From NCBI GenBank assembly GCA_002308795.1, contig DBVV01000068.1, positions 1,076-49,412 on the forward strand: a stretch of DNA of 48,337 nt, read 5' to 3'. The notes beneath the pieces are model-generated. The model had not been told where the DNA came from, searched no databases, and was given only the letters and a program-made list of their open reading frames with translations. Shown here in pieces: positions 1 to 24,851 of this stretch; position 1 is the stretch's first letter; each line of letters starts with the position of its first letter. A program made the position numbers and the translations under genes. The DNA is from Mageeibacillus sp. UBA1255. Lineage in GTDB: Bacteria > Bacillota > Clostridia > UBA1212 > UBA1255.

Positions 1-389
1 CGGTACATCTGGTTGCGCATGTCGTAGGATATGTGCTGCGCGATCCAGTTGTTCAGATAGTTCTGCCCTACGCCGATCAGGTTCGATCCCAGGTGCAGCG
101 CTAGGGAGATCACGATCAGCCTGATCAGCGCGGCGATGCCGCTGCCGATCCAGCCGCCCATGTCCTTGCCCGTGAGCACGTCCACGATGCTGCCCGTCAG
201 GATCGACGGGAACAGGCTGCACACCGACGCTACCGCTATACAGGCGAGCACCAGCGCCAGCTGCTTCCAGTACGGCCGTATATACGAGAATATCCGCGCG
301 AGCAGCTCCTTTGTGACCTTCGGGGTATTCTTTTTTTCCTCGTCCGTGAGGTAGCTCCCCCTGCCGCCTCTTCCGCCGGGTCCCTGCAT
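1..389 (-). CDS. ABC exporter, N-terminal transmembrane domain (5' part of the gene; continues past the window start)
   Basis: My own reverse-complement translation from the ATG at 389-387, which is preceded by GGAGGAGG. It reads MQGPGGRGGRGSYLTDEEKKNTPKVTKELLARIFSYIRPYWKQLALVLAC...ISYDMRNQMY, a typical N-terminus of MsbA-type ABC exporter membrane domains. The ORF is open to the window edge, so it is missing from the ORF track. Confidence 0.75.
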   Translation of the reverse strand, partial: MQGPGGRGGRGSYLTDEEKKNTPKVTKELLARIFSYIRPYWKQLALVLACIAVASVCSLFPSILTGSIVDVLTGKDMGGWIGSGIAALIRLIVISLALHLGSNLIGVGQNYLNNWIAQHISYDMRNQMY

Positions 390-437
390 GGCCCCTCCTC
401 CTTCCGTCCGTTTCCGCCGTCCCTTTTCACCGCAGCG

Positions 438-1193
438 TCATTCCTTTACCGACCGCATCGCCAGGAACGTGGGGATGTGCAGCTCGTGCAGCCGCCCCGA
501 TCCGTTCGTGTCCTCGTACAGCTCCAGCAGCCTGAAGCCCGCCTCCAGCTGTCCTCCGATCTGCTCCTCCAGCGAATGGGAGAACTGCACCCCGGCGTCC
601 TGCTCCTCGAGCTGCCGCATCTGGTCCTCGTTGGCCAGCGGATCGAAGGGCAGCGAATTGACGATCGCCTTTTCCTCCTCGTCCACTATGTAGTTCACGT
701 AATGGTCCGTGCCCGCTATCAGGCAGCCCCCGCGCCTCAGCACGCGGTGACACTCCCTCCAGATCGGCCGCACCTCCCGCACGTAGCAGTTGGATACGGG
801 ATGGAACACGATATCGAACTCGCCGTCGGAAAAGGGCAGAGGCTTCGTCATATCCGCCCGTACGATGCGGATGGAGTAGCCTTCCCTTTCGCTGACGGCC
901 CGTTCGCTCTCGATCTGCCTGGACGAGTAATCCAGCACCGTGCACTCCGCGCCGAGCGCCGCGAACACCGGCATCTGCTGCCCGCCGCCGCTGGCGAGGC
1001 CCAGCACCTTTTTGCCGCGCAGGTCGCCGAACCAGCGGTGCGGAACGGGCTTTGTGGGGGTCAGGTATATCTCCCATTCGCCCCGTAACGCTTTCAGGTA
1101 CGCCTCGTGCGTGATGGGCTTTCCCCATTCCCAGCCCTCGTCGACCCATTTATCGATGGTCCTGGCGTTGACGTCCTGGTAATCTTCCCGCAT
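438..1193 (-). CDS. Class I SAM-dependent methyltransferase (small-molecule type)
   Basis: 251-aa ORF with the SAM-binding motif VLGLASGGGQQ and, downstream, FDIVFHPVSNCYV...RVLRRGGCL, typical of the Methyltransf_11 fold. It has no DNA-methyltransferase (D/N)PPY motif. Confidence 0.85.
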   Translation of the reverse strand: MREDYQDVNARTIDKWVDEGWEWGKPITHEAYLKALRGEWEIYLTPTKPVPHRWFGDLRGKKVLGLASGGGQQMPVFAALGAECTVLDYSSRQIESERAVSEREGYSIRIVRADMTKPLPFSDGEFDIVFHPVSNCYVREVRPIWRECHRVLRRGGCLIAGTDHYVNYIVDEEEKAIVNSLPFDPLANEDQMRQLEEQDAGVQFSHSLEEQIGGQLEAGFRLLELYEDTNGSGRLHELHIPTFLAMRSVKE

Positions 1194-1302
1194 GACCGCT
1201 CAATCCCTTCCGGCTCGTATTCGCCGCACAAGTGTACCACAAACGCGATAAAAAAATCAATCGCGGAAGAGCCCCGTCCCGCGCCTTCGAACGTCCGTTC
1301 GC

Positions 1303-1330
1303 TTGATTTTCCCGCAGGTTATGGTACAAT
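1303..1330 (+). promoter_or_regulatory. Sigma-70-type promoter for the TerB/ATPase/helicase operon
   Basis: TTGATT (1303-1308), a 16-nt spacer, then the extended -10 TGgTACAAT (1322-1330). It sits in a short AT-rich island inside a GC-rich region, 35 nt upstream of the RBS GGGAGG and the ATG at 1365. Confidence 0.6.
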
Positions 1331-1364
1331 ATAATGGGTGAATGAGCGGACGGGAGGTTGGAGC

Positions 1365-3218
1365 ATGCGCATAACGGAGCTCGCCGAATACGCAAAGGAA
1401 GCGTACGGGATCGAGCACACGGAGGAATGCGCCCGCGTCCCCTGCCGCTGCGTGCTGCGCGACCCCCGCACCGGCAGGCGCGTCGCCTCGCTGATCCGGG
1501 AGCGCGACGGGCGCACCGGGCGCGAGATCGAGCGATGCACGATCCGGTGCGGACGCCCCTCCGCCCTGCTGTGCGAAAAGCCGTACGTCACGCATCCCAT
1601 CCCCGGATACGACATAGACTGGGCGGCCGTGGAATTCACGGACGAGACGGAAAGAAGCGTTGTCGTCCGCCTGTTCGACAGGGCGATGGCGCTTTGCGGG
1701 GATATGTACACGGTGGTACTTGACACCCTCCGCGGCGCACAAGGAGCCTCCTCCTCCGACACGCCCCTTCCGTACTTCGGCAGGGCGAGCGGCATGCCGG
1801 CCCCCACCGTACCCGAGCGCATCGCACAGATGCGCCGCCTGTACGTGTACGGGAGCGAATCCCTGGAGAGCAGGGCCGAGAACTTCCGCCGCCAGGCCGC
1901 GTTCATGAAGGATTACGAGGACGAATACCCGTGGCCGGGCGAATGGACCAGGGCCTATCCCACGTACCACGACCTCACCACGCGCCAGCTGCGCGGATAC
2001 TTCTCCTGGCGCACCCGGGCGAGAAAGGGCGAGTTCCTGCCCATCTCCCCGTCTGCCGCGTATATCTACGTGTTCGAGCTGCTGAACGGGATCGGCGCAG
2101 GCACGCCTTCGGACGCGCTCGAAAAGCTCCTGGCGTTCGAACGCGGCTATGTCGACAAGGGGTACGGCGACGTATGGATGCGCGACAGGCTGCACAGCTG
2201 GATGCTGGCTCTTTCGGTGGTGAACGGACTCCCGCAGGAAGAAGCGCGGGAGTTCGCGGGCAGGGAGCTCACGGAGCAGGACCTGGCGGTCGAAGCGCTC
2301 CGCACCGCGCAGGAGCAGACAGACGAGGCCGTCTACCTGGCGCTCGCCCGTTTCGGAGGTGCGGCGCTTGCCCGCTCCCCCGTGCCGGCGAAGGACATGC
2401 AGCGCTGCGCGCGCCTTTTCGCGTCGGCCTGGAGGCACGCCGCCGCGGAATACGAAAAGGGCGGCCGGGACCTGTTCACGCTCTGCTTTTCCGAGCCTTC
2501 CTTCCGCCCCTGGTATCCGTTCACCGATGCGGTGTACCGCGGCGGGGAGGACAGGCGCGACCGCGTGTACGAGCTCGACCCGGTGCGGACCTACCGCTGC
2601 AGTGGCGGCAGGTGGGAGGTGAGCTCCTACGAGCGGCTCTACTTCGATACGAAGCTCCTCAAGTCCTTCCTGCGGGAGGCCGACCGCGTTTTCAGGCTGT
2701 ACCTGAAGACGGGCCGCCCCCTGAAGCCCGACCGGGAAGCCTCGTGGGCGACTCCCTTCGCGCGGAAGGCCTGCGAGGAGGACACGCTGTACCTGATCGA
2801 GCTTTCGCGGCCCCGCGTCACCATCGACGTATCGCTCCTTGACGGCATCCGGCAGGACGCGCTGGTCACGCAGAGCAGCCTCCTCGTCCCCGAAGAGGAG
2901 GAGCTCGCACTTCCCGGAACCGCGGTTCCCGAGGCAGCCGTGGATCCCGCATCCGCTCCCCGGGCGCCGGATGCCACCGGGACGTGCCTCGCGCTCGAGC
3001 CCGCGTACGAAGCGATCCTGCGGGAACTGCTCCGCGGCGGCGACGCGGCGGGAACGGCGTCCTCCCTGCACGTCATGCCGTCCATCGCGGCGGATGCGAT
3101 CAACGACGCGCTCTACGGCGCGATCGGCGACACGGCCGTCGAATGCGACGGGAACTCCCTCTGCCTGGTACCCGACTACGCGGACGACGTCGCGCGCATA
3201 CTCGGAGGCGAAGAATGA
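1365..3218 (+). CDS. TerB-N / TerB-C domain protein (Shango SngA-like)
   Basis: ORF 1338..3218. I prefer the ATG at 1365 because GGGAGG lies 7 nt upstream. The central segment YPTYHDLTTRQLRGYFSWRTRARKGEFLPISPSAAYIYVFELLNGIG resembles the TerB-N signature. The C-terminal part (VTIDVSLLDGIRQDALVTQSSLL...MPSIAADAINDALYGAIGDTAVE) resembles TerB-C. The stop overlaps the next start (ATGA at 3215-3218). Confidence 0.7.
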   Translation: MRITELAEYAKEAYGIEHTEECARVPCRCVLRDPRTGRRVASLIRERDGRTGREIERCTIRCGRPSALLCEKPYVTHPIPGYDIDWAAVEFTDETERSVVVRLFDRAMALCGDMYTVVLDTLRGAQGASSSDTPLPYFGRASGMPAPTVPERIAQMRRLYVYGSESLESRAENFRRQAAFMKDYEDEYPWPGEWTRAYPTYHDLTTRQLRGYFSWRTRARKGEFLPISPSAAYIYVFELLNGIGAGTPSDALEKLLAFERGYVDKGYGDVWMRDRLHSWMLALSVVNGLPQEEAREFAGRELTEQDLAVEALRTAQEQTDEAVYLALARFGGAALARSPVPAKDMQRCARLFASAWRHAAAEYEKGGRDLFTLCFSEPSFRPWYPFTDAVYRGGEDRRDRVYELDPVRTYRCSGGRWEVSSYERLYFDTKLLKSFLREADRVFRLYLKTGRPLKPDREASWATPFARKACEEDTLYLIELSRPRVTIDVSLLDGIRQDALVTQSSLLVPEEEELALPGTAVPEAAVDPASAPRAPDATGTCLALEPAYEAILRELLRGGDAAGTASSLHVMPSIAADAINDALYGAIGDTAVECDGNSLCLVPDYADDVARILGGEE

Positions 3219-4543
3219 CAGAAAACGTAAAGGTGCCCAAGCGGATATCGCAGGCCGTGCTCAATTCCCTTAAGGGCGGCGTGGTGCCCCGCGTAGGCCT
3301 TCCCTATATCGCCGTGGGCCGCAGGCTCGAGATCGAAGCGCTGCTGCACGACGTGGACGTGATCGCAGAGGGCGGCGCGTCGTTCCGGTTCGTCGTGGGG
3401 CGCTACGGCTCCGGCAAGAGCTTTCTTTTGCAGACCATGCGCAATCACGTGATGGACCGCGGCTTCGTGGTCGCGGACGCCGACCTGTCTCCCGAGCGCC
3501 GCTTCCAGGGAACGCGCGGGCAGGGGCTCGCCACGTACAGGGAGCTGATGGGGAACCTCTCCACCAAGACGAAGCCGGAGGGGGGCGCCCTGCCCCTCGT
3601 GCTGGACAGGTGGATCAACGCGGTGCAGGCGGAGGCGATGAAGGAGACGGGCCTTGCAGCAGGCGATCCCGCGCTCGCGGAGGAGACAGACCGCAGGATC
3701 CGGGCCGTCACCGCCTCCGTCAGCGAACTCGTGCACGGCTTCGAATTCGCAAAGCTCCTGTCCGCCTATTACCGCGCATACCTGAAAAGCGACGACGCGC
3801 TCAAGGCGAACGTGCTGCGCTGGTTCCGCGGCGAATACGCCACGAAGACGGAGGCGAAGGAGGCGCTGGGCGTCGGGATCGTGGTGACGGACGACGACTG
3901 GTACGATTACCTCAAGATCTTTGCGATCTTTTTCTGCATGGCCGGCTACAAGGGGCTCATGGTCATGGTCGACGAGCTGGTCAACCTGTACAAGATCCCG
4001 AACCCGGTCACCCGGCAGTACAACTACGAAAAGCTGCTCGCCATGTACAACGACGCGCTCCAGGGCAAGGCGCGGTACATCGGCTTCATCATGGGCTCCA
4101 CGCCCCAGGCGCTCGAGGATAAGCGGCGCGGCATATACAGCTACGAGGCGCTCCGCTCCCGCCTCACCGACGGGCGCTTCACCGGGCCCGGCGCGAGGGA
4201 CCTGCTGGCGCCCGTGATACGGCTCGAGCCCCTCACCGCGGAAGAGATGCTCGTGCTGTGCGAAAAACTCTCCGCCATGCACGCCGACCTGTACGGCAGC
4301 GAGCGTACGCTCACCTCCGGGGATCTGGCGGTCTTCGTCAAGGCGGAGTACGAAAGGATCGGCGCGGATCTCAACATCACGCCGCGCGAAGTGATCCGCG
4401 ACCTGATCGGGATCCTGGATATCCTATTCCAAAACCCCGGCATGAGCCTCACGGACGTGCTGGGATCGGACAAATTCACCTATTCCGTCTCGGACGAGGT
4501 GCCAAACGCCGCAGATCCCGGCTACGCGGAGTTTACGATATGA
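3215..4543 (+). CDS. P-loop ATPase, DUF2791 / BrxD-like (Shango SngB-like)
   Basis: The in-frame ATG at 3215 (MTENVKVPKR...) lies within ORF 2984..4543. Walker A is VVGRYGSGKSFLLQ and Walker B is GLMVMVDELVNL. The N-terminal GGVVPRVGLPYIAVGR is typical of this family. ATGA overlaps occur at both ends. Confidence 0.75.
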   Translation: MTENVKVPKRISQAVLNSLKGGVVPRVGLPYIAVGRRLEIEALLHDVDVIAEGGASFRFVVGRYGSGKSFLLQTMRNHVMDRGFVVADADLSPERRFQGTRGQGLATYRELMGNLSTKTKPEGGALPLVLDRWINAVQAEAMKETGLAAGDPALAEETDRRIRAVTASVSELVHGFEFAKLLSAYYRAYLKSDDALKANVLRWFRGEYATKTEAKEALGVGIVVTDDDWYDYLKIFAIFFCMAGYKGLMVMVDELVNLYKIPNPVTRQYNYEKLLAMYNDALQGKARYIGFIMGSTPQALEDKRRGIYSYEALRSRLTDGRFTGPGARDLLAPVIRLEPLTAEEMLVLCEKLSAMHADLYGSERTLTSGDLAVFVKAEYERIGADLNITPREVIRDLIGILDILFQNPGMSLTDVLGSDKFTYSVSDEVPNAADPGYAEFTI

Positions 4544-6795
4544 ACGTATTCGAGAGATACGCGCCCTTCATACAGGACTATATCTTCCGCAGCGGCTGGA
4601 GGAGCCTCAGAGCCGTGCAGAACGCCGCGGGAGAGGCGATATTCGGGACGGAGGACAACGTCCTGATCGCCGCATCCACCGCGTCGGGAAAGACCGAGGC
4701 GGCCTTCTTCCCCATCCTGACGCTCCTTTCCGAGGATATGCCCGGGTCCGTCGGCGCGCTTTACATCGCGCCGCTCAAGGCGCTGATCAACGACCAGTTC
4801 GGCCGCCTGAAAGAGCTCTGCGCTGAGGCGGACATACCCGTGACCCGCTGGCACGGCGACGCGCCGCGCACCGGCAAGCGCGCACTCCTCAAAAACCCCT
4901 CCGGCATCCTGCAGATCACGCCGGAATCCCTGGAATCGCTTTTGATCAACCGTTCCATGGAGGTCCCGTCCCTTTTCTGCGGCCTTCGCTTTATCGTGAT
5001 CGACGAGATCCACTCGCTCCTGCGCGGCGACCGGGGGCTTCAGACGTTCTGCCTGATCGAAAGGCTCTGCAGGCTTGCAGGATGCGATCCGAGGCGTATA
5101 GGATTATCTGCCACGATAGGCGATCCTGAGGCTGCGGGGAGATTTCTGGCATCGGGGAGCAATAAAAAAACGGTCATACCGAAGTTTAACGGCGGCAAGG
5201 AAGTCTGGCGGCTGTCAATGGAGCATTTTTTCAATTCTGATCCGCAGGCTTCCGAAGGAAGGGTGCTCCCGTTCCCTACCCCGCCTCAGGAAGAACCGAC
5301 AGATAAAGCTCCCAAGGCTGCCGATCCCGGAATGGGCTATATTTTTGAACATACAAAAGGTAAAAAGTGCCTGATATTTACAAACTCCCGGGAGGAGTGC
5401 GAATCGGTCTGCCAGAACCTCAGACAGTATTGCGAAGCGACGAATCAGCCCGACCGTTTCCTGATACACCACGGTAATCTATCCGCATCATACCGCGAAA
5501 GTGCCGAGGAGGATATGAAGGACGACGATTCTTTAAAATCGGTCTGCGCCACCGCGACGCTGGAACTCGGGATAGACATCGGGAGACTGGAGCGCGCGTT
5601 CCACGTTGACGCCCCGTTCACGGTTTCCGGATTTCTTCAGCGCCTTGGCCGCACCGGCCGCCGCGGAGATCCGTCCGAAATGTGGTTCGTCATGCGAGAG
5701 GAACACCAGGAGGCGCGGGCAATGCTTCCGGACAGCATTCCGTGGTACCTGATACAGGGGATCGCGCTTATACAGCTTTACATTGAAGAGCGTTTCGTGG
5801 AGCCGCCGCGTACCGACAGGCTTCCTTACAGTCTGCTTTACCATCAGACTATGAGCACGCTGGCCTCCTGCGGTGAGATGTCGCCAGGCGAGCTGGCATC
5901 AAAAGTTTTAACGCTGAACTGCTTCAAGCGCATAACGCAGGACGATTACAAGGTGCTTCTCCGACATCTTATAGAGATCGATCATATAAACCGCACAGAA
6001 AACGGAGGCCTGATCATGGGTCTTAGCGGAGAGCGCGTCGTAAATAATTTTAAATTCTACGCTGTTTTTCAGGAAAACGTGGAATATACCGTGCGCGCGG
6101 GATCAGAGCAGCTGGGGACGATCGTTAAGCCGCCTCCGGTCGGTGATAAGATCGCCATAGCGGGGCGTGTATGGGTCGTGGAGGAAGTTGACCATAAGCG
6201 GCACGAACTTTATTGTACGCTCGTTAAGGGCAATATCCCCGCATATTTCGGCGACGTTGCCGGAGACATACATACGCGCATTCTGGAGCGCATGTACCGC
6301 GTACTGAACGAGGACGATATATACCGTTATCTTATGCCTAACGCCGTTTTCAGACTGTCCGACGCGAGGGAAACGTTTGCCCGGTCAGGCATGTCAGGCC
6401 GCCCTATGATCAACCTGGGCGGTAATATGTGGGCGCTCTTCCCCTGGCTCGGCAGTTACGCATTTTTAGCTTTAGAACGGTTTTTAAAGATTCGGTGTGC
6501 AAAGAGGCTCGGATTAAAAGGGCTGAATTCGTCGAGGCCGTACTGGATCCAGTTCACGATGCAGGTAAGCGAAAAAGAGTTTTACGGCATCGTTCGTGAA
6601 GAGGCGGAGAAAGAATTCGATCCGCTTGAACTTGTGTATAAGGATGAGGTCCCGGTATTTGAAAAATATGACGAATTCGTTCCTCCTGAGCTTGTGCGCA
6701 AAGGATTTGCTTACGGCGTGCTGGATGTAGAGGGAATGAAGCAGCGAGTCGTTTCATGGGATCGTAATTATACGGAGGGCGTCCGGAATGATTAA
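4540..6795 (+). CDS. DEAD/DEAH-box SF2 helicase, Lhr / BrxHI-like (Shango SngC-like)
   Basis: The in-frame ATG at 4540 (MNVFERYAPF...) lies within ORF 4258..6795. Helicase motifs: I ASTASGKTEAAF, II VIDEIHS, III GLSATIG, IV LIFTNSREE, V ATLELGIDIG, VI LQRLGRTGRRG. A C-terminal region of about 330 aa has no motif I recognise. Confidence 0.85.
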   Translation: MNVFERYAPFIQDYIFRSGWRSLRAVQNAAGEAIFGTEDNVLIAASTASGKTEAAFFPILTLLSEDMPGSVGALYIAPLKALINDQFGRLKELCAEADIPVTRWHGDAPRTGKRALLKNPSGILQITPESLESLLINRSMEVPSLFCGLRFIVIDEIHSLLRGDRGLQTFCLIERLCRLAGCDPRRIGLSATIGDPEAAGRFLASGSNKKTVIPKFNGGKEVWRLSMEHFFNSDPQASEGRVLPFPTPPQEEPTDKAPKAADPGMGYIFEHTKGKKCLIFTNSREECESVCQNLRQYCEATNQPDRFLIHHGNLSASYRESAEEDMKDDDSLKSVCATATLELGIDIGRLERAFHVDAPFTVSGFLQRLGRTGRRGDPSEMWFVMREEHQEARAMLPDSIPWYLIQGIALIQLYIEERFVEPPRTDRLPYSLLYHQTMSTLASCGEMSPGELASKVLTLNCFKRITQDDYKVLLRHLIEIDHINRTENGGLIMGLSGERVVNNFKFYAVFQENVEYTVRAGSEQLGTIVKPPPVGDKIAIAGRVWVVEEVDHKRHELYCTLVKGNIPAYFGDVAGDIHTRILERMYRVLNEDDIYRYLMPNAVFRLSDARETFARSGMSGRPMINLGGNMWALFPWLGSYAFLALERFLKIRCAKRLGLKGLNSSRPYWIQFTMQVSEKEFYGIVREEAEKEFDPLELVYKDEVPVFEKYDEFVPPELVRKGFAYGVLDVEGMKQRVVSWDRNYTEGVRND

Positions 6796-7891
6796 AAAGC
6801 GAAGAAAGATATCATTCATACTGATTATGGCATTGTCCGCGGCGATTTGTTTTACAGGTTGTTTCGCGAATCGTTCTGCCGTTGATGATTACGGATCGCA
6901 GCCTGAAACCACCGATAATATTGACGTCGTGATCGTCACTCCCCTGCCGAACGGCGCCGGATCTCCGGAGGCCTCTTACCCGGTAAGTGAAACGCCGGAC
7001 GATGCCGCGACCACGCCGGACGAGCTTAACACTCCTGCCGGAACGGAAAACGCGACTGAAATACCGGGCACTAAGACTCCGGACCATAACGTAGTTCTTA
7101 AAGTCGATCCTGAGAAGCTCCACAGCAGAAGCGTGATGCTTAAAAATATCGATACGGGAAAGATAATGTACGAATTATCCGCAAGCACCAGAATATACCC
7201 CGCTTCGCTCACAAAAATGATGACCGGGCTGCTGGCTGCCGAGATGCTCAGCGCGGATAAAAAGTACGAAGTGACACGTGAGGCTATCGAACGGGCGTAC
7301 AGCCTTGGCGCCTCAACCGGTGGTTTTGAACCGGGTGAATACACGGACAAGGACGGCATTTTAGGCGGGATATTGATGTCTTCCGCGGCTGAGTGCAGTT
7401 TCACTGCGGCGATCGAGCTGTGTGGCTCCGAGGAAGCTTTCGTGGAGCTTATGAATAAAAGAGCTCAGGAGCTGGGTATGAGCAACACGCATTTTGTAAA
7501 CTGCACCGGGCTCCACAATGACGATCATTATTCCACAGTCGAAGATCTGATGAAGCTGGCGGAGCATGCGCTTCGGAATCCGGATTACGTCCGGTTTTTC
7601 ACGCTCGATACCTTTAAAGCATACACGGAGCCGTCACGGAAATACCAGCTGACGTTGACAAGCACTGTTTTTTCGGGCCTTGCCAATTACGATTACGGCG
7701 ACGTGGAAATCCTGGGTGGAAAGACCGGGTACACCAGGCAGGCGGGCCTCTGTCTTACTACTTACTCGCTGTACGCGGGCAATCACTATATATTGATCAC
7801 GGCGGACAATGACGGAAACCTGAACACGGATAAGTATCATTTTATTGACGCGGAATACATTTACAGAGTTTTGCAGGAGGAATTACGATGA
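6788..7891 (+). CDS. D-alanyl-D-alanine carboxypeptidase-like (peptidase S11) lipoprotein
   Basis: Signal peptide with the lipobox ICFTGC. SxxK motif ASLTKMM and KTG motif GGKTGYT are present. The SxN position reads SSA, so it may be divergent. The RBS GGAGGG lies inside the helicase 3' end, giving an 8-nt overlap. Confidence 0.75.
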   Translation: MIKKRRKISFILIMALSAAICFTGCFANRSAVDDYGSQPETTDNIDVVIVTPLPNGAGSPEASYPVSETPDDAATTPDELNTPAGTENATEIPGTKTPDHNVVLKVDPEKLHSRSVMLKNIDTGKIMYELSASTRIYPASLTKMMTGLLAAEMLSADKKYEVTREAIERAYSLGASTGGFEPGEYTDKDGILGGILMSSAAECSFTAAIELCGSEEAFVELMNKRAQELGMSNTHFVNCTGLHNDDHYSTVEDLMKLAEHALRNPDYVRFFTLDTFKAYTEPSRKYQLTLTSTVFSGLANYDYGDVEILGGKTGYTRQAGLCLTTYSLYAGNHYILITADNDGNLNTDKYHFIDAEYIYRVLQEELR

Positions 7892-8634
7892 GTGGTAATA
7901 AAGGCAAAGGGAACGTTATTGTCACCGGCGGTGCGACCGGAATCGGTATGGCGTGCGTAAAAGCGTTTGCGAAAAATGGTTACAACGTAGTGATCGGTTT
8001 TAATTCCTCCGGCGAGGCCGCGCGCGCACTCGTTCGTGAGCTGATAGCAGACGGGTCCGGGGCAATTGCGGTGAAGGCTGATGTTTCCCGCCCAGCCGAG
8101 GCTGAAAAGCTTGTTTTAAAATGCATCGAGGTCTTCGGCTTTCCGGATATCCTGGTGAACAATGCCGGTATCGCCCTTCCGCAGAAGCTTATCACCGAGA
8201 CGTCTTTTGACGAGTTTTTGCGTGTTATGAAGGTCAATGCCGGGGGCGCGTTTAATTGTTCTCGTGCGGTGCTTCCCCATATGATCCGGCGTCACTCCGG
8301 TTCCATTGTTAATATTTCTTCTGTCTGGGGCCGTGCCGGCGGTTCATGCGAGGTAGCATACAGCGCGTCTAAAGGGGCGGTCATAAGTTTTACAAAAGCG
8401 CTGGCAAAGGAGGTCGGCCCCTCAGGGATCCGCGTCAATTGCGTTGCTCCCGGCGTCATCGACACAAAAATGAACGCAGCCCTGAGTTCCGACGTTATGG
8501 CGGATCTGGCAGATGCTGCGTCTTTATGCCGCATAGGTAAACCCGAAGAGGTCGCCGATGCTGTTTATTACCTCGCCACCAGCGGCGCTTCGTTCATAAC
8601 CGGAGCGGTACTGGATGTGGACGGAGGGCTTTAA
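7888..8634 (+). CDS. SDR-family oxidoreductase (3-oxoacyl-ACP reductase FabG-like)
   Basis: TGGATGIGMA (TGxxxGxG), NNAG and YSASK (YxxxK) motifs. ATGA overlap with the upstream gene. Confidence 0.85.
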   Translation: MSGNKGKGNVIVTGGATGIGMACVKAFAKNGYNVVIGFNSSGEAARALVRELIADGSGAIAVKADVSRPAEAEKLVLKCIEVFGFPDILVNNAGIALPQKLITETSFDEFLRVMKVNAGGAFNCSRAVLPHMIRRHSGSIVNISSVWGRAGGSCEVAYSASKGAVISFTKALAKEVGPSGIRVNCVAPGVIDTKMNAALSSDVMADLADAASLCRIGKPEEVADAVYYLATSGASFITGAVLDVDGGL

Positions 8635-8641
8635 GAAAGTT

Positions 8642-8711
8642 GCAACTTTCAACTTGCCACTTGCAACTTTCAACTTGCCACTTGCAACTTTCAACTTTCA
8701 ACTTGCCACTT
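8642..8711. repeat. Tandem repeat: ten heptads N-C-[A/C]-A-C-T-T, organised as about 3.3 copies of a 21-bp unit
   Basis: Read directly as gcaactt tcaactt gccactt, repeated three times, with one extra tcaactt in the third unit. It fills nearly the whole 79-bp gap between the convergent stops at 8634 and 8714. A 16-bp palindrome, GAAAGTTGCAACTTTC, lies at 8635-8650. Confidence 0.9.
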
Positions 8712-9715: not shown

Positions 9716-12019
9716 ATGAAAAAGAAATCAGTCAGAATACTCGTTATTGTCACCGGCCTGGTTATCGCAGCCGGGCTGATCGCGGGATGCGTTTCCGCGA
9801 ACAAGAGAACGACCGATGCCGCTCACGTCCACGCAGACGGTGACGCGATATTGAAATATATATCCGAAACCAATCTCTGCAAAGTATATTCTTCAAAAGA
9901 CAGACTCGAGGGCAATACCGTCGTTCTGGAAACAACAGATTATTCCGAAGATCCTTTCGCTTTCTTTAACTACGAAGGCTACGTGCGCTCGCTCGGATTC
10001 GAACCCGTATCCGCAGACGACTACAAAGTGATCGTTATAAAAGCAAAACAGGAGAACTGTTCAAACATCGAGTTTGAACTGTTTTACGCGGCAGGGAGCG
10101 TTCAGGGCGCGCAGGGAGACGCGAGCAGATCCGTATCATTCGATAACTCTACAGAAGACTGGCAGTATCTTATATTTGATCTCACGTCGGAAAACTTCCA
10201 CGGTACGGTCCACGGATTCAGGTTCGATTTCATGCGTTTTGCATCCTCCGCTGGAGAAAAATTCAGCATTGCCTCTATCACGTTCCTGAAAAACACTGCG
10301 GAAGCTGCTAAATTTATCACTTCTCAGAACGGGCCCGATCCCCATCTGCTCTCGGATAAGCAGCAAAAAGCAGCTGATGCTTTGCTTAAAACGGTATCTT
10401 TATCTGAGCCGGAGAATAAAAAACAGATCGCCCCGGGAGAAGATCCGTCTATCGATCTGTGGTTCGATCACACTTACACAAAAACTCCTGCCGAGTCGAC
10501 AAAATCAAGCGGGCGGCACACTTATAAGATGTATCTGGCGAAAAACGAGATAGAAGACTGCCAGTTTTTATTGTCGTCGACTTCCGACCGTGAAGGGCTT
10601 ACCGCCAGGATCACACCGTTCGTTAACGGCAAGGGCGAAACGCTTCGCACCGAGCTGTATTACGGCTATTATTTCGATGACGTTCAGGGAAAATCGATCG
10701 TCGATCCGATACCGAGGCTCGACGCACCGTTCTCATTGACCGCGAACAGAAGCAAGCTGTTTATTATTAAATTGTTTACGGAAGAGAGCAGTCAGGCGGG
10801 CGATTATACTGCAGAGTTAAGTATTATTGACTCCGACGGTACGGAACTGAAAAAAGCGACGGTCTACGCGTACGTGTATGATTTTGCGCTTCCTGAGGCG
10901 ACAACGTGCAAGACCCAGATGGATCTGTCGTGGTGGGCGGTATACGTGAATCACGAATTGTATGAAGGCGACGACGGTCTGATGTACAAAAAATACTATG
11001 ATCTGCTGCTTGAGAACCGCGTCTGCGCGTACACCCTCCCCTACAGCGATAACGGCGCATACGAAGATCCGCGCGTTCGTGAATACGTCGCTAACCCGAG
11101 AGTCGTGGCATTTAACCCAATCGGATGGAAAGTCGATCCGACGGTCGAAAACGTGAGTTCGGCGTACAGATACCTTTCTCAGAACCCCGAATGGCTCAAT
11201 AAAGCGTACTTTTATCACGTCGACGAACCCCTTTCGATGGAGGCGCTGAATCAGGTCAATTCAGAGGGTAAGCTGTTCGCGGACAATTTCCCGGGCTACC
11301 ACTATCTCGTGCCCATACACTATGACATGGCTCTCGATCAGGAGAGTAAGACGGACTTTTTCGAATACGTAAGTCAGTACGTGAATTCATGGTGCCCGCA
11401 TACGTTTTTCTATAACACGCTTGCTGATTACAAGCGAAATCCGATGCTTACTTACCGTGTAGGAGGTATGCTGGAAAAGAATCTGGGGACTTTCCCGGAG
11501 CGTATGGCAAAACATCAGTCCGAAGGTGACGACGTGTGGTGGTACGTTACGCGCTACCCTCAGTCGCCCGAGATCACGGTGTCAATAGAAACGCAGGCCG
11601 TTCGTTACCGCATCCTGTTCTGGCAGCAGAAACTGTACAACGTAAATCATTTCCTGTACTATCTTGTCAACGACTGGTTCCCGTCAACTGACGCGGCGGG
11701 AAATCCGGATTTCGGCTGGAATTCGAAGCATGAACAGGCTTCCGGGGCTACTCCGTATGACATCTACGGTAACGGCGTTCTGGTATACGCAGGTCATTAT
11801 ATCGGCGTAGAAGAACCGATCGGCTCCCTTCGCTTAGAATGCATACGTGACGGTATCGAGGACTTTGAGTACCTGACGCTGTTTGAGCAGCTTTACGGTT
11901 CTGATAAGCTGGAGCTGGTTATCAAGCAGGTCACCACGTCTTTAGGCGAGTACACTACCGACGAAGAGGTGTTCACCCGCATCCGCTGCCTGCTGGGCAT
12001 GCTGATCGAGGCGAAGTGA
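9716..12019 (+). CDS. Secreted lipoprotein-like DUF4091-domain protein (GH123-like putative glycoside hydrolase)
   Basis: Signal peptide with LIAGC. The C-terminal LECIRDGIEDFEYL segment is one I associate with DUF4091, the catalytic region of GH123 beta-N-acetylgalactosaminidases. The N-terminal region looks like a beta-sandwich. The family call is from memory only. Confidence 0.55.
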   Translation: MKKKSVRILVIVTGLVIAAGLIAGCVSANKRTTDAAHVHADGDAILKYISETNLCKVYSSKDRLEGNTVVLETTDYSEDPFAFFNYEGYVRSLGFEPVSADDYKVIVIKAKQENCSNIEFELFYAAGSVQGAQGDASRSVSFDNSTEDWQYLIFDLTSENFHGTVHGFRFDFMRFASSAGEKFSIASITFLKNTAEAAKFITSQNGPDPHLLSDKQQKAADALLKTVSLSEPENKKQIAPGEDPSIDLWFDHTYTKTPAESTKSSGRHTYKMYLAKNEIEDCQFLLSSTSDREGLTARITPFVNGKGETLRTELYYGYYFDDVQGKSIVDPIPRLDAPFSLTANRSKLFIIKLFTEESSQAGDYTAELSIIDSDGTELKKATVYAYVYDFALPEATTCKTQMDLSWWAVYVNHELYEGDDGLMYKKYYDLLLENRVCAYTLPYSDNGAYEDPRVREYVANPRVVAFNPIGWKVDPTVENVSSAYRYLSQNPEWLNKAYFYHVDEPLSMEALNQVNSEGKLFADNFPGYHYLVPIHYDMALDQESKTDFFEYVSQYVNSWCPHTFFYNTLADYKRNPMLTYRVGGMLEKNLGTFPERMAKHQSEGDDVWWYVTRYPQSPEITVSIETQAVRYRILFWQQKLYNVNHFLYYLVNDWFPSTDAAGNPDFGWNSKHEQASGATPYDIYGNGVLVYAGHYIGVEEPIGSLRLECIRDGIEDFEYLTLFEQLYGSDKLELVIKQVTTSLGEYTTDEEVFTRIRCLLGMLIEAK

Positions 12020-12055
12020 GGCTTCCGTCAGCCACATTCTCGATAATCCGCCATT

Positions 12056-12101
12056 GTAGCTGACAAAAACGCCTATTTTGTCAGCTACATTTTACGTTTT
12101 T
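12056..12101 (+). terminator. Rho-independent terminator
   Basis: Perfect 13-bp stem GTAGCTGACAAAA / TTTTGTCAGCTAC with a 7-nt loop, followed by the T-rich ATTTTACGTTTTT, 37 nt after the stop at 12019. Confidence 0.85.
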
Positions 12102-12172
12102 CGTGATTGCAGCTGATGCACTTTTTTCACCATATCGGATCGAGTACTGGAATCGAATCAAGCGCAAAAGCA

Positions 12173-12216
12173 TGCAACTAAATTCAGTTGCAAAATGATT
12201 TTATTAATGATATAAT
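12173..12216 (+). promoter_or_regulatory. hicAB promoter with an overlapping inverted-repeat operator
   Basis: TTGCAA (12188-12193), a 17-nt spacer, then TATAAT (12211-12216). The inverted repeat TGCAACT-6 nt-AGTTGCA (12173-12192) overlaps the -35 box. The RBS GGAGGG lies 9 nt before the GTG at 12241. Confidence 0.7.
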
Positions 12217-12240
12217 AAGCGACGTGGAGGGATATCTACA

Positions 12241-12498
12241 GTGAGCCAAAAAGATAAGTTGATAGCAAAACTACGTTCAAAGCCAAAAACGTTTACGTTT
12301 GATGAAGCTGAGCTTTTACTCGGGTATCTTTCTTATAGAAAGAGCGATAAAGGTAAAACAAGCGGCTCACGTGTTATGTTCGTAAGCGATGAACATAATT
12401 CCAAAATATTGTTACACAAACCTCACCCAAGAAAGGAACTTTTAGAATATCAGGTAAAGCAGCTATTAGAACAACTGGAACAGGAGGGTCTGATATGA
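12241..12498 (+). CDS. hicA: Type II toxin-antitoxin system, HicA-family mRNA interferase toxin
   Basis: 85 aa with a GTG start. Contains GSRVMF...LHKPHPRKEL, the HicA/YcfA-like signature. ATGA overlap with the downstream HicB gene. Confidence 0.8.
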   Translation: MSQKDKLIAKLRSKPKTFTFDEAELLLGYLSYRKSDKGKTSGSRVMFVSDEHNSKILLHKPHPRKELLEYQVKQLLEQLEQEGLI

Positions 12499-12839
12499 AT
12501 AATATGTTGCAATATAAAGGCTATTTAGGAAGCATTGAATTTTCTGAGGCTGACGGAGTATTTTATGGGAAAGTACAGGGAATTCGTTCTTTGATTTCTT
12601 ACGAAGGTGCTACCGCAAAGGCACTTTTAGAAGACTTCCACGGCGCGATTGACGATTATCTTGAATTATGTGCCGAAAATGGAATTAAACCCGAAACAGC
12701 GTATAAAGGAAGCCTTAATGTACGTCTTGGAACAGATCTTCACAGGCGCGCAGCTATTTTTGCGATCAACCACAGCCAAAGCCTCAACAGTTTTATTGAA
12801 GAAGCTGTACGGGACAAACTTGCGGCATCTAACGGATGA
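12495..12839 (+). CDS. hicB: HicB-family antitoxin with a C-terminal ribbon-helix-helix domain
   Basis: 114 aa. The N-terminal YKGYLGSIEFSEADGVFYGKVQGI is the HicB fold signature. The C-terminal SLNVRLGTDLHRRAAIFAINHSQSLNSFIEEAV is RHH/CopG-like. Confidence 0.8.
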   Translation: MNNMLQYKGYLGSIEFSEADGVFYGKVQGIRSLISYEGATAKALLEDFHGAIDDYLELCAENGIKPETAYKGSLNVRLGTDLHRRAAIFAINHSQSLNSFIEEAVRDKLAASNG

Positions 12840-12852
12840 TAGGTGATTTTAT

Positions 12853-13932
12853 TTGAAACGCAACGATCTGACGATACTTATCAAGCCAGTTTCCGGTCTG
12901 TGTCAACTATCCTGTAAGTATTGTTTTTACAAGGAGTTGGCCGGACTTAACGATATTAGGGAACAATTGATGCAGCCGGAAGTGGCAGACGGACTGATCA
13001 AAAAAGTCGGTGAAATCCTTGCCCCGGGGCAGCAGGTCAATTTCGCTTTTCAAGGCGGCGAACCGCTTCTGGCCGGGCCTGATTTCTACGTATCTTTTTT
13101 CGAAAAAGTAAAGAAAGCAAATATCAAAGCAACGTATCTTTTTCAAACAAACGGGATCGCGTTGACGTCGGAAAAATGTGAAGAATATTTAAAGCTGTTT
13201 AAAGAAAACAACTGCCTGATTGGTCTATCTGTTGACGGCCCGCGAAAAATGCATGATGCAAACCGCATTGACCATAACGGATCAGGTACGTATGATACGG
13301 TCATGCAGGCATACAAATTGCTCAAAAACGCAAATATAGAAGTAAATTTCCTGACAGTACTGTCTAAAGCCGTATTGACTCACCCGAAACTGCTTTACGA
13401 TTTTTACAGAAATTCTGGAATCAAATACGTCCAATTGATCCCGTGCCTTCCTCCTCTTAACGAAACAGAAAGAAAAGATAATAAATACAGCATGCTTCTT
13501 GCAGCATTCTGGATCCAATTTTATGATTTGTGGAAAAAGGATTTTTTAAGCGGAAAAAGCTATTTTGAAGTCAGAGAGTTCTCTGCCATTCTAAGCGGTC
13601 TTTCAGGGAAGCGTGTCGAAACGTGCATTTTCCCCGGAAAATGCAGCCCTCAGCTAGTTGTAGAGGCAGACGGAAGCACTTATCCGTGTGACTTTTATGT
13701 ACTCCCGCAATATCGAACCGGATCAGTATTGTCCGATTCACTCGAAGACACTTTACGCTCAGTCAATATGTTAAGATTCGCAAAAGATAACCCGCCCCTG
13801 CAGTCACAGTGCCTGCAATGCAGGTACAGCGTTTTATGCAAAGGCGGGTGCAGACGAATGCGTCAGCTTTGGCAAAGTGATCCGGAGAATTGTGCTATGA
13901 GGCTATTCCTGGACCACATTTGCGGCAATTAA
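12853..13932 (+). CDS. Anaerobic sulfatase-maturating enzyme (radical SAM/SPASM, anSME)
   Basis: TTG start. The CQLSCKYCFY radical SAM cluster motif, FQGGEPLL, the SPASM cysteines (YPCDFYV, CLQCRYSVLCKGGCRR) and end-to-end resemblance to clostridial anSME as I remember it. A Cys-type sulfatase is encoded 8 kb away. Confidence 0.8.
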   Translation: MKRNDLTILIKPVSGLCQLSCKYCFYKELAGLNDIREQLMQPEVADGLIKKVGEILAPGQQVNFAFQGGEPLLAGPDFYVSFFEKVKKANIKATYLFQTNGIALTSEKCEEYLKLFKENNCLIGLSVDGPRKMHDANRIDHNGSGTYDTVMQAYKLLKNANIEVNFLTVLSKAVLTHPKLLYDFYRNSGIKYVQLIPCLPPLNETERKDNKYSMLLAAFWIQFYDLWKKDFLSGKSYFEVREFSAILSGLSGKRVETCIFPGKCSPQLVVEADGSTYPCDFYVLPQYRTGSVLSDSLEDTLRSVNMLRFAKDNPPLQSQCLQCRYSVLCKGGCRRMRQLWQSDPENCAMRLFLDHICGN

Positions 13933-15602: not shown

Positions 15603-15690
15603 TGTCAGACCTCTCTTTATGTTCGTCATTAACGAGCGGGCAACCCCAGAGTTACCCGCATCTCAAGCTATCAGTCCTGTCCAAAAAAGA

Positions 15691-15867: not shown

Positions 15868-15880
15868 AATTATCCTCCCA

Positions 15881-20003: not shown

Positions 20004-20006
20004 GAT

Positions 20007-21104: not shown

Positions 21105-21125
21105 ATCCTCTCCCCCCAAAGCAGG

Positions 21126-22067: not shown

Positions 22068-22084
22068 CAAAAATCACCACCGTT

Positions 22085-24825: not shown

Positions 24826-24851
24826 CTCCCGATCCGAAAGTATCCGAGAGA

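What the first reader, a model, noticed from the sequence alone, without database searches (positions are those of the whole stretch)
1303..6795. Self-contained TerB-N/TerB-C + DUF2791 ATPase + Lhr-like helicase operon (Shango-like anti-phage candidate)
Seen in the sequence: three co-directional genes sit behind their own promoter. They are joined by ATGA start/stop overlaps at 3215-3218 and 4540-4543, which implies translational coupling and fixed stoichiometry. Gene 1 has TerB-N-like (YFSWRTRARKGEF...YIYVFELLNG) and TerB-C-like regions. Gene 2 has Walker A GRYGSGKSF and Walker B VMVDEL, like BrxD/DUF2791 ATPases. Gene 3 has all the SF2 helicase motifs plus an uncharacterised C-terminal third.

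Established knowledge: the DUF2791 ATPase (BrxD) and Lhr-like helicase (BrxHI) pair occurs in type 2 BREX/Pgl. To my recollection, a TerB-domain + ATPase + helicase triad is the architecture named Shango (SngA/B/C), whose mechanism is unresolved.

Inference: this is a stand-alone defence module. The window contains no PglX methyltransferase, PglZ or other BREX genes, and no terC/terD/terZ tellurite-resistance genes.
Basis: partly seen in the sequence, partly recalled or inferred. Interest (0 to 1): 0.75.

Follow-up and report, generated by a model that had tools for sequence, protein, structure and literature searches.

The report
Shango phage-defence operon, spliced copy
This is a three-gene Shango-type phage-defence operon of a kind common in rumen and gut bacteria, so the system itself is ordinary, but this copy is joined from two unrelated lineages in the middle of its helicase gene, and that join is either a natural recombinant or an assembly error.

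Summary
Three co-directional genes (1365-3218, 3215-4543, 4540-6795) sit behind a promoter-like site at 1303-1330 and are joined by ATGA overlaps.

The interpretation also holds. The best PADLOC matches of the three proteins are SngA (2.7e-60), SngB (1.2e-183) and SngC (9.6e-277). The window has no BREX or ter genes. Shango is a published, experimentally validated system, so novelty is low.

Three things are new:
- **Mosaic operon.** At nt 4996, the VIDEIH helicase motif II, GC3 falls from 0.85 to 0.57. DNA identity to a 53% GC lineage seen in six other contigs rises from about 75% to about 99%. Window 1-4995 therefore has a different origin from the rest. A Logan assembly of run SRR5324878, which holds this sequence, breaks at this point. 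Natural recombinant (about 0.6) and chimeric assembly (about 0.4) cannot be separated without the reads.
- **Different SngA architecture.** In this rumen/gut clade SngA has a YjbR-fold N-domain, TerB_N and TerB_C. It has no TerB core and no membrane segment, which argues for DNA sensing.
- **Candidate SOS control.** A perfect LexA box abuts the -35 element.

SngA diverges far faster (median 50% identity) than SngB and SngC (about 85%).

The parts
1288..1301 (.). Candidate LexA/SOS (Cheo-type) operator CGAACGTCCGTTCG, abutting the -35 element.
   Evidence: It is the only CGAAC-N4-GTTCG in the 48 kb window. The same box lies at the same distance (-76/-77 from the sngA start) in L017 and L018, and a one-mismatch box occurs in L025. 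That makes 4 of 51 loci against 0.16 expected. LexA binding was not tested.
1303..1330 (+). Promoter-like site TTGATT-16-(TG)gTACAAT.
   Evidence: Consensus scan. A matching promoter-like pattern lies upstream of sngA in 23 of 51 related loci against 0.5 expected, and upstream of the native low-GC copy L091.
1365..3218 (+). sngA, 617 aa. Domains: YjbR-fold domain (aa 1-115), disordered linker (116-142), TerB_N helical domain (145-375), beta-rich insert plus helices (379-506), linker (510-539), and a C-terminal winged-helix-like part of TerB_C (545-612).
   Evidence: PADLOC SngA 2.7e-60. Pfam TerB_N and TerB_C. AF2 model with pLDDT 86.6. Foldseek matches to 3h9x and 2fki, the YjbR fold, with TMt 0.74 and 0.64. 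Pfam YjbR matches weakly in 14 of 52 homologs. No PF05099 TerB hit. Maximum Kyte-Doolittle score over a 19-aa window is 1.09, so no membrane helix is indicated.
3215..4543 (+). sngB, 442 aa, a BrxC/BrxD-family (DUF2791) P-loop ATPase. Walker A is at nt 3398-3421 and Walker B at nt 3962-3979.
   Evidence: Pfam BrxC_BrxD 9.8e-164. PADLOC SngB 1.2e-183. Motif positions.
4540..6795 (+). sngC, 751 aa, an Lhr-like SF2 helicase. Motif I is at nt 4672-4704, motif II VIDEIH at 4996-5013 and motif VI at 5638-5664. The C-terminal part (aa 461-751) has no solved relative detectable by sequence but is shared with BrxHI and with proteobacterial SngC.
   Evidence: PADLOC SngC 9.6e-277 over aa 3-735. Best PDB sequence matches are Lhr 5v9x and 7lhl and MrfA 6znp, over the helicase core only. 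The C-terminal 291 aa give no PDB hit. Identity to Klebsiella plasmid SngC is 30% over the full length.
4996..5033 (.). Junction of two lineages inside sngC. To the left is a high-GC origin (GC3 about 0.85). To the right is the about 50% GC lineage of the rest of the window.
   Evidence: GC3 profile. Per-segment protein identity to P0001 is 83.5% for aa 1-170 and 97-100% for the later segments. DNA mismatches against L001 number 18-38 per 100 nt to the left and 0-3 per 100 nt to the right. The last lineage-specific difference is at 4995. Logan contigs L002 (ending at 5033) and L003 (starting at 5004) overlap by exactly 30 nt.

Best explanation
The locus is a Shango (SngA-SngB-SngC) system. It belongs to a large clade carried as a compact three-gene cassette, often with its own promoter, by rumen and gut bacteria of several phyla.

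**Shown:**
- Gene order, intact ATPase and helicase motifs, translational coupling and family membership.
- SngA here is a soluble multi-domain protein: a YjbR-fold N-domain, TerB_N, and TerB_C ending in a winged-helix-like module. It lacks the TerB core.
- SngA evolves much faster than SngB and SngC.
- This copy is a hybrid. The promoter, sngA, sngB and the first ~152 codons of sngC come from a high-GC lineage. The rest of sngC and everything downstream come from a ~50% GC lineage. The join lies exactly at helicase motif II.

**Inferred mechanism:**
- SngA is the specificity subunit. It recognises a feature of invading or damaged DNA through its two putative DNA-binding modules.
- This switches the BrxD-like ATPase SngB, which licenses or loads the Lhr-like 3'-5' translocase SngC onto that DNA.
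- No nuclease domain is present. Protection would therefore come from helicase-driven disruption of phage replication or handing DNA to host nucleases, not from direct cleavage.
- The LexA box suggests that this copy is repressed until the SOS response is triggered.

I put the hybrid being a real recombinant in a cell at about 0.6. The confidence of 0.8 refers to the identification as a Shango system of this clade; the mechanistic steps carry the lower probabilities given in the full report.
For: **Family membership**
- PADLOC top hits are SngA, SngB and SngC, and the Pfam domains agree.
- No BREX or ter partners are in the window.
- Published Shango systems protect E. coli and P. aeruginosa 10-100 fold (PMC10250203; 10.1101/2022.05.11.491447).

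**Cassette**
- The sngA-sngB-sngC order is kept in nearly all of 80 loci from Lachnospiraceae, Ruminococcaceae, Erysipelotrichaceae, Treponema, Flexilinea, Bacteroidales, Desulfovibrio and Victivallales.
- This window's flanking genes are not conserved next to the module elsewhere.
- The promoter-like pattern recurs and the start/stop overlaps are conserved.

**Specificity subunit**
- Among 50 modules the median pairwise identity is 50% for SngA, 85% for SngB and 84% for SngC.

**SngA architecture**
-.

**Hybrid**
-.

**Evidence that the hybrid is real**
- In the Logan k=31 assembly of run SRR5324878, which holds this sequence, the high-GC contig L002 runs through the shared 38 nt to 5033. It does not stop at 5025. 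So no native low-GC left arm joins the graph there.
- The run appears to be of low complexity. Its contig numbers are 30-608, against 1,164,744 in a rumen metagenome.

**SOS box**
-. LexA-like genes lie directly upstream of sngA in L015 and L054.
Against: - No member of this clade has been tested against phage.
- The nearest neighbours of the module are mostly housekeeping genes, not defence genes.
- The window holds no other clear defence system.
- The mechanism is inference from domain content. No effector domain was found.
- The SngC model was poor (pLDDT 51), so its C-terminal third remains uncharacterised.
- The YjbR assignment rests on fold similarity and weak Pfam hits. DNA binding by YjbR proteins is itself only predicted.
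- The hybrid version is seen only in this one contig and in run SRR5324878. Six contigs from other assemblies carry the non-hybrid low-GC version.
- The high-GC arm includes ordinary chromosomal-looking genes (an ABC transporter and a methyltransferase). It lies at the contig end. Both points fit a misassembly.
- No other partial high-identity exchange was found among 50 modules.
- SngA, SngB and SngC distances co-vary (rho about 0.7), so cassette swapping is not pervasive.
Confidence: 0.8

Rival explanations
1. The operon as written is an assembly chimera. Two organisms in the sample each carry their own complete Shango locus, one at about 65% GC and one at about 53% GC. The assembler joined them through the stretch of identical sequence at helicase motif II. 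Under this reading each half is real Shango, but no cell contains this exact operon or this hybrid SngC.
For: - GC3 steps abruptly from 0.85 to 0.57 and identity from about 75% to about 99%, exactly at an invariant motif.
- The high-GC arm is at most about 6 kb and sits at the end of a 49,412-nt contig.
- It carries ordinary chromosomal-type genes at a donor-like GC, just like resident Shango loci in 62% GC rumen genomes.
- The Logan assembly of run SRR5324878, which holds this sequence, breaks at the junction with a k-1 overlap, so the graph branches there.
- Four independent assemblies of the low-GC lineage all break inside sngB, which shows that this conserved locus tangles assembly graphs.
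- The hybrid protein occurs only in this contig. The native form occurs in five other contigs.
Against: - A four-way junction would end the high-GC contig at 5025. It runs to 5033, so the native low-GC left arm is absent from the cleaned graph of that run.
- The run looks like a single-genome-scale data set.
- The demonstrable shared stretch is only about 38 nt. That is short for a large-k assembler to cross without read support (inference).
Confidence: 0.4
2. In this clade the cassette is primarily a DNA-damage response or repair module, not an anti-phage system. The proposed parts are an SOS-controlled Lhr/MrfA-like helicase, an ATPase partner, and a YjbR/MmcQ-like DNA-binding adaptor.
For: - A perfect LexA box sits at the promoter, and the association with LexA boxes or LexA-like genes recurs in a minority of loci.
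- The nearest solved relatives of SngC are Lhr and MrfA. From my own knowledge, MrfA is a mitomycin repair helicase.
- SngA has a YjbR/MmcQ-fold domain.
- The module sits among housekeeping genes, and its GC tracks the host's (r = 0.90).
- SngB and SngC are under strong purifying selection across phyla.
Against: - All three proteins score best against Shango models built from defence loci.
- Homologous systems protect against phage in two species (PMC10250203; 10.1101/2022.05.11.491447).
- The distribution is patchy and crosses phyla, and relatives sit on 542 conjugative plasmids. This fits a mobile accessory function.
- Fast-evolving SngA fits an arms race.
- The LexA box occurs in only about 8% of loci.
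Confidence: 0.1
3. The locus is a remnant of a type 2 BREX/Pgl system that kept only its BrxD and BrxHI genes.
For: SngB and SngC also match BrxD (7.7e-46) and BrxHI (1.1e-116).
Against: - The Sng models score far higher.
- The BrxD equivalog scores 157 bits against a cut-off of 350.
- No PglX, PglZ, PglW or PglY is present in the 48 kb window.
- None is among the 116 nearest-neighbour proteins of 67 related loci, which instead always carry sngA.
Confidence: 0.02

Closest known systems
Shango (SngABC) of E. coli and P. aeruginosa PA14 (Millman et al. 2022; Johnson et al. 2023), represented here by the homolog on Klebsiella IncF plasmid pNB05-2 (L090)
   Same: - The gene order is the same: a TerB_N/TerB_C protein, a DUF2791 ATPase and a DEAD/DEAH helicase.
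- Sizes and start/stop overlaps are similar.
- SngB is 40% identical and SngC 30% identical over the full length.
- The window proteins match the PADLOC Sng models.
   Different: - SngA is not alignable by BLASTP.
- The proteobacterial SngA (769 aa) has a TerB core domain (PF05099, 31.8 bits) between TerB_N and TerB_C.
- The window clade has none. It carries an N-terminal YjbR-fold domain instead.
- This copy also has a LexA box and is a hybrid of two lineages.
BrxD and BrxHI of type 2 BREX/Pgl
   Same: Both have the same ATPase family (Pfam BrxC_BrxD) and the same helicase clade. A published helicase phylogeny groups SngC with BrxHI, DruE and DpdJ (PMC12278908). The C-terminal part of SngC is covered by the BrxHI model.
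   Different: No methyltransferase, PglZ, PglW or PglY is present. The BrxD equivalog threshold is not met. A TerB_N/TerB_C protein is present instead.
Lhr-core and MrfA (YprA) helicases (PDB 5v9x, 7lhl, 6znp)
   Same: The SF2 helicase core is related (1.2e-30 to 4.6e-24). There is a weak WH_Lhr match at aa 417-477.
   Different: Only the motor aligns. The last 291 aa have no detectable solved relative. Those enzymes are stand-alone repair helicases without SngA or SngB partners.
Other TerB-named defence systems (Bunzi BnzA, Dionysus DinB)
   Same: They are grouped with Shango in the literature as 'TerB' systems proposed to survey the membrane (10.1101/2022.05.11.491447; 10.1101/2025.09.30.679545).
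   Different: Those proteins carry the TerB core, with transmembrane or pore-forming partners. This SngA has no TerB core and no hydrophobic segment, so the membrane-surveillance idea does not transfer.
YjbR/MmcQ family (PDB 2fki, 3h9x)
   Same: The fold of SngA aa 1-115 matches (TMt 0.64-0.74, probability 1.00).
   Different: Those are stand-alone proteins of about 120 aa. Here the domain is fused to TerB_N and TerB_C. The Pfam match is below threshold, and in the window copy many of the clade's conserved aromatic residues are replaced.

Membership tests
Shango (SngABC) | Three adjacent co-directional genes in the order TerB_N/TerB_C protein, ATPase, SF2 helicase. | tested here: met
   The ORFs are 1365-3218, 3215-4543 and 4540-6795. 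Pfam domains agree. The same order holds in nearly all of 80 related loci.
Shango (SngABC) | Each protein scores best against the SngA, SngB or SngC profile. | tested here: met
   SngA 2.7e-60, SngB 1.2e-183 and SngC 9.6e-277. The next-best families are far weaker.
Shango (SngABC) | Intact Walker A/B motifs in SngB and helicase motifs I, II, III and VI in SngC. | tested here: met
   Motif positions are listed.
Shango (SngABC) | A TerB core domain (PF05099) in SngA, as in the proteobacterial homolog. | tested here: not met
   PF05099 is found in Klebsiella plasmid SngA (2e-7, above the cut-off). It is absent from the window protein and from all 52 clade members at E <= 0.05. The system is defined operationally by the Sng profiles, so I treat this as a difference of variant, not an exclusion.
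Shango (SngABC) | Protection against phage when expressed. | not testable with these tools
   Protection is published only for the E. coli and P. aeruginosa systems (PMC10250203; 10.1101/2022.05.11.491447).
BREX type 2 / Pgl | PglX methyltransferase, PglZ, PglW and PglY encoded alongside BrxD and BrxHI. | tested here: not met
   None appears among the 32 other ORFs of the window or among the 116 nearest-neighbour proteins of 67 related loci.
BREX type 2 / Pgl | BrxD equivalog score at or above the curated cut-off. | tested here: not met
   NF033438 scores 157.4 bits against a cut-off of 350.
Tellurite-resistance (ter) cluster | terZABCDE or TerD/TerC family genes nearby. | tested here: not met
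   No such Pfam family is among the listed hits for the window ORFs (only the top 25 of 47 families are shown). The TerB core is absent.
Lhr-core helicase | Helicase core followed by the Lhr winged-helix domain and domain 4. | tested here: inconclusive
   The core matches 5v9x at 1.2e-30. WH_Lhr scores 18 bits against a cut-off of 27. The AF2 model is too poor (pLDDT 51) to judge the C-terminal domains.
YjbR/MmcQ domain family | YjbR fold and sequence profile. | tested here: inconclusive
   The fold matches (3h9x TMt 0.74, 2fki TMt 0.64). The Pfam profile matches only weakly and below the cut-off, in 14 of 52 homologs and not in the window copy itself.

The most novel reading that the evidence does not exclude
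The window has caught a natural hybrid Shango operon. By recombination within the invariant VIDEIH motif, a resident system exchanged its whole 'front half' for that of a distant high-GC lineage. The exchanged half comprises the SOS-box promoter, sngA (only 34% identical to the resident allele), sngB, and the first ~152 codons of sngC.

If so, Shango would diversify its specificity by swapping a sensor cassette onto a conserved helicase body. This rumen/gut clade would sense DNA (YjbR-fold plus winged-helix SngA, with no TerB core) under LexA control, not membrane state.
Probability: 0.25. Interest if true: 0.55.

Novelty: new member of a known kind. Interest (0 to 1): 0.3.

Why it matters
As a system call this adds little. 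Any run of PADLOC or DefenseFinder would label the locus Shango.

Three points could still matter, because the mechanism of Shango is unknown:
- **DNA sensing, not membrane sensing.** A very large rumen/gut clade has an SngA without the TerB core and with two putative DNA-binding modules. This speaks against the 'membrane surveillance' idea, at least for this clade, and gives a concrete binding hypothesis to test.
- **Which subunit sets specificity.** SngA shows about 50% identity between modules while SngB and SngC show about 85%. That nominates SngA as the specificity subunit and SngB/SngC as a conserved engine.
- **A natural domain swap, or a warning.** If the junction at motif II is biological, it is a natural domain-swap experiment showing which parts are interchangeable. 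If it is an artefact, it warns that highly conserved defence genes seed chimeric contigs in metagenome-derived genomes.

Tried and rejected
- **Exact look-up of the hybrid SngC.** It is not on record as a called gene. Only the cluster listing shows it on the 49,412-nt NCBI contig.
- **Junction-side search in JGI metagenomes.** A 49-nt high-GC-specific pattern next to the junction gave no match. Neither the donor nor an independent copy of the junction was found.
- **The high-GC parent.** No other protein resembles the high-GC arm closely. The best identities are 54% to its SngA, 78% to its SngB and 87% to the N-terminal part of its SngC.
- **Other recent partial exchanges.** Among 50 modules only one near-identical full-length pair turned up.
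- **AF2 model of SngC.** The alignment of 80-95% identical sequences was too shallow (pLDDT 51). The fold search on it only recovers the helicase core, so the C-terminal third stays unassigned.
- **Downstream genes as a fourth component.** The Peptidase_S11 and short-chain dehydrogenase genes that overlap the sngC stop are not found next to Shango in the 80 other genomes. They are the same neighbours as in the native low-GC lineage.
- **Defence-island context.** The window and the neighbours of related loci are mostly housekeeping genes.
- **Phage carriage.** No SngB relative occurs in 50,697 phage records.
- **RNA genes.** None are present in the window.
- **Long antisense ORFs within 1257-4282.** I regard these as by-products of high GC.
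- **Anantharaman et al. 2012 paper on Ter systems.** It could not be retrieved.

Full report
**1. The observation**

- Three + strand ORFs run 1338/1365-3218, 3215-4543 and 4540-6795.
- Gene 1 most likely starts at ATG 1365, preceded by GGGAGG. Homologs begin at the equivalent residue.
- The ATGA overlaps at 3215-3218 and 4540-4543 are real.
- All quoted motifs are present.
- A promoter-like TTGATT-16-TACAAT with an upstream TG lies at 1303-1330.
- These features are more than chance. A matching promoter-like pattern lies 50-85 nt upstream of sngA in 23 of 51 related loci, against 0.5 expected. The sngB/sngC ATGA overlap recurs in 57 of 78 loci, and sngA/sngB overlap by 1-14 nt in 49 of 79.

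One correction concerns the 3' end. A Peptidase_S11 gene (6788-7891) overlaps the sngC stop by 8 nt. A short-chain dehydrogenase gene (7888-8634) overlaps that one by 4 nt. No terminator-like site intervenes. So transcription probably continues past 6795.

**2. What it is**

- Pfam finds TerB_N and TerB_C in protein 1, BrxC_BrxD (DUF2791) at 9.8e-164 in protein 2, and DEAD plus Helicase_C with a weak WH_Lhr in protein 3.
- Against PADLOC the top hits are SngA (2.7e-60), SngB (1.2e-183) and SngC (9.6e-277). BrxD (7.7e-46) and BrxHI (1.1e-116) are far behind.
- The NCBIfam BrxD equivalog is not reached (157 bits against a cut-off of 350).
- The other 32 ORFs of the window are housekeeping genes (an Hsp90-family protein, a 4-alpha-glucanotransferase, a ParA-type ATPase, radical SAM enzymes, transporters). 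None is a Pgl, BREX or ter gene.

Shango was described as a TerB-like protein plus ATPase plus helicase system. It protects E. coli and P. aeruginosa about 10-100 fold, by an unknown mechanism (10.1101/2022.05.11.491447; PMC10250203). I found no later mechanistic study in the library.

**3. The clade**

- SngC has thousands of relatives at over 80% identity in rumen and gut assemblies.
- 536 candidate stretches in the collection of GTDB species genomes encode an SngB relative. The best 80 are 74-78% identical. They come from Lachnospiraceae, Ruminococcaceae/Oscillospiraceae, Erysipelotrichaceae, Treponema, Flexilinea, Bacteroidales, Desulfovibrio, Victivallales and a Myxococcota MAG.
- The order sngA-sngB-sngC is kept in nearly all of these loci.
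- The genes that flank the module in this window are not conserved elsewhere. The three-gene cassette with its promoter is therefore the unit.
- The nearest neighbours in 67 loci are mostly unrelated housekeeping genes. An HxlR-type regulator lies just downstream of sngC in 9 loci, and there are only a few defence-type neighbours (Card1-like proteins, methyltransferases). There is no strong defence-island signal.
- SngB relatives sit on 697 plasmids, 542 of them conjugative, and in none of 50,697 phage records.
- Module GC follows host GC (r = 0.90) but is always somewhat higher, by 4 points on average.
- Among 50 complete modules the median pairwise identity is 50% for SngA, 85% for SngB and 84% for SngC. 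The three distance sets are correlated (rho about 0.7).

The cassette is thus mostly inherited as a unit: SngB and SngC are strongly conserved, while SngA changes fast.

**4. SngA architecture**

An AlphaFold model built on 52 homologs (pLDDT 86.6) shows the following parts:

- an alpha/beta N-domain (aa 1-115);
- a disordered linker;
- a large helical domain that corresponds to TerB_N;
- a beta-rich insert with helices;
- a second linker;
- a small C-terminal domain within TerB_C.

The N-domain matches the YjbR fold (3h9x TMt 0.74, 2fki TMt 0.64, probability 1.00). Pfam YjbR matches weakly in 14 of 52 homologs. The C-terminal 70 residues resemble LysR-type winged-helix DNA-binding domains, but only at about 0.5 probability. 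No hydrophobic segment reaches membrane-helix level.

The TerB core (PF05099) is absent from the whole clade. It is present in the SngA of a Klebsiella IncF plasmid Shango. That system's SngB and SngC are 40% and 30% identical to the window's, while its SngA does not align by BLASTP at all.

So this clade is a domain-architecture variant. The 'TerB means membrane surveillance' idea from the literature does not apply to it directly.

**5. The mosaic**

- GC is 63-68% up to about 5000 and about 50% afterwards. GC3 within sngC drops from 0.83-0.90 to 0.43-0.63 between codons 151 and 181.
- The closest SngC in the database, P0001, is 97-100% identical in the segments of aa 171-751 but only 83.5% identical to aa 1-170.
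- Its contig L001 (uniformly about 53% GC) aligns to window 3929-8666. There are 18-38 mismatches per 100 nt to the left of about 4996 and 0-3 per 100 nt to the right.
- Four contigs of this low-GC lineage from separate assemblies agree. The last lineage-specific difference is at 4995, and VIDEIH starts at 4996.
- All of them share the window's downstream genes.
- The native left half of that lineage is on L091. Its SngA is 34% identical and its SngB 74% identical to the window's.
- The high-GC arm continues leftwards through a methyltransferase gene. In Logan contig L007 it continues into an ABC transporter gene beyond the window start.
- The window is nearly the whole of a 49,412-nt NCBI contig.

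**6. Recombinant or chimera?**

For a chimera:
- The break lies at an invariant motif.
- The foreign arm is short, terminal and looks like ordinary chromosome.
- The hybrid is seen only here.
- The Logan assembly of run SRR5324878, the one run that holds these exact sequences, breaks at the junction with a 30-nt (k-1) overlap between L002 and L003, so the graph branches there.

For a real recombinant:
- If both parents were present, the high-GC contig should end at 5025 (4995 plus 30). It runs to 5033. So the only branch is at 5034, and no native low-GC left arm enters the graph.
- The run's contig numbers (30, 287, 418, 549, 608) imply roughly a thousand contigs or fewer. A rumen metagenome reaches 1,164,744. 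This looks like a single-genome-scale data set.
- A shared stretch of about 38 nt is short for a large-k assembler to cross without read support (inference).

A search of JGI metagenomes for the junction-side sequence found nothing. No other recent partial exchange was seen among 50 modules. I put the real recombinant at about 0.6 and the chimera at about 0.4. Only the reads can decide. Either way, both parents carry complete Shango systems.

**7. Regulation**

Directly upstream of the -35 element lies CGAACGTCCGTTCG (1288-1301). From my own knowledge this is a perfect match to the Gram-positive LexA (Cheo) box, CGAAC-N4-GTTCG. It is the only such site in the window.

The same box sits at the same distance from sngA in L017 and L018, and a one-mismatch box is in L025. 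That is 4 of 51 loci against 0.16 expected. In L015 and L054 a LexA-like S24 peptidase gene lies immediately upstream of sngA, co-directional. A minority of these cassettes therefore appears wired to the SOS response. Binding was not tested.

**8. How it most likely works**

Shown:
- There are three translationally coupled proteins.
- The ATPase and helicase motifs are intact.
- No nuclease or other effector domain is detectable.
- SngA is soluble and variable.
- SngB and SngC are conserved.

Inferred:
- SngA recognises invading or damaged DNA, or a phage factor, through its YjbR-fold and winged-helix-like modules. It sets specificity (about 0.6).
- The BrxD-like ATPase SngB converts this into loading or activation of the Lhr-like helicase SngC (about 0.5).
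- Protection comes from helicase action on phage replication intermediates, or from recruiting host nucleases, not from direct cleavage or cell suicide (about 0.4).
- In this copy expression would rise on SOS induction (about 0.4).

The main functional rival is a DNA-damage repair role (about 0.1). It is favoured by the LexA box, the Lhr/MrfA and YjbR/MmcQ resemblances and the housekeeping context. It is disfavoured by the validated phage protection of homologs, the mobile cross-phylum distribution and the rapid evolution of SngA.

**9. Verdict**

This is a confirmed Shango system and a new member of a known kind, so overall interest is low to moderate. The three points worth following are the TerB-less, YjbR-bearing SngA architecture of a very large rumen/gut clade, the candidate SOS control, and the two-lineage junction at helicase motif II. 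That junction must be checked against the reads before this hybrid operon is used for anything.

Noticed in passing
window 1-5033 versus 5034-48337: The left 5 kb is 63-68% GC (GC3 about 0.85) and the rest is about 50% GC. The left part comprises a methyltransferase gene on the - strand, sngA, sngB and the 5' part of sngC. The switch falls inside sngC at motif II.
   Followed up: yes
window 1288-1301; L017, L018, L025, L015, L054: A perfect LexA/SOS box lies at the sngA promoter, and the same box lies at the same distance in two other loci. LexA-like S24 peptidase genes lie directly upstream of sngA in two further loci.
   Followed up: partly
window 6788-8634: Peptidase_S11 and short-chain dehydrogenase genes overlap sngC and each other by 8 and 4 nt, so they are probably co-transcribed with Shango. 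The same arrangement occurs in the native low-GC lineage but not next to Shango in other genomes.
   Followed up: yes
window 8640-8711: A tandem repeat (7-nt unit TTGCAAC, 21-nt super-unit, about 3.4 copies) lies between the convergent dehydrogenase and ParA/Mrp-like genes. Two Logan contigs end and begin here.
   Followed up: no
window about 12241-12839: A HicA/HicB toxin-antitoxin pair, called on Logan contig L088, is followed by a radical SAM/SPASM gene at 12853-13932.
   Followed up: no
window about 12000-25000: A lower-GC block (41-48%) carries large - strand ORFs (566, 776 and 600 aa) with no Pfam hit on record, plus two GDPD-family genes. It may be a separate island.
   Followed up: no
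window 41987-42937 (- strand): A metallo-beta-lactamase-fold gene has a precomputed match to the Anti-Pycsar Apyc1 family. The identical neighbourhood occurs in cow rumen run SRR094926.
   Followed up: no
L020, L021, L023, L031, L035, L041, L046, L050, L065, L081 (just downstream of sngC): A co-directional ORF of about 130 aa follows sngC within a few nucleotides in ten loci. Nine neighbour proteins are HxlR-type regulators and are probably these ORFs. This may be a lineage-specific regulator of the cassette.
   Followed up: partly
upstream of sngA in L021, L023, L031, L037, L041, L050 and others: In many loci the -10 element of the recurring promoter lies inside a palindrome (for example GGTATAAT.ATTATACC). 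This suggests an operator different from the LexA box of the window copy.
   Followed up: no
L001, L004, L005, L006 (left ends): All four independent assemblies of the low-GC lineage break inside sngB. The highly conserved Shango genes seem to fragment or tangle metagenome assembly graphs.
   Followed up: partly
window 1365-1709 (SngA aa 1-115): In the window copy many residues that are nearly invariant in the clade's N-domain are replaced. Examples are K21, W22, F25, G27, F28, S29, W39 and W47, mostly changed to R, C, E or V. This fits high-GC drift or relaxed constraint, although the fold is still predicted with pLDDT 77-93.
   Followed up: partly
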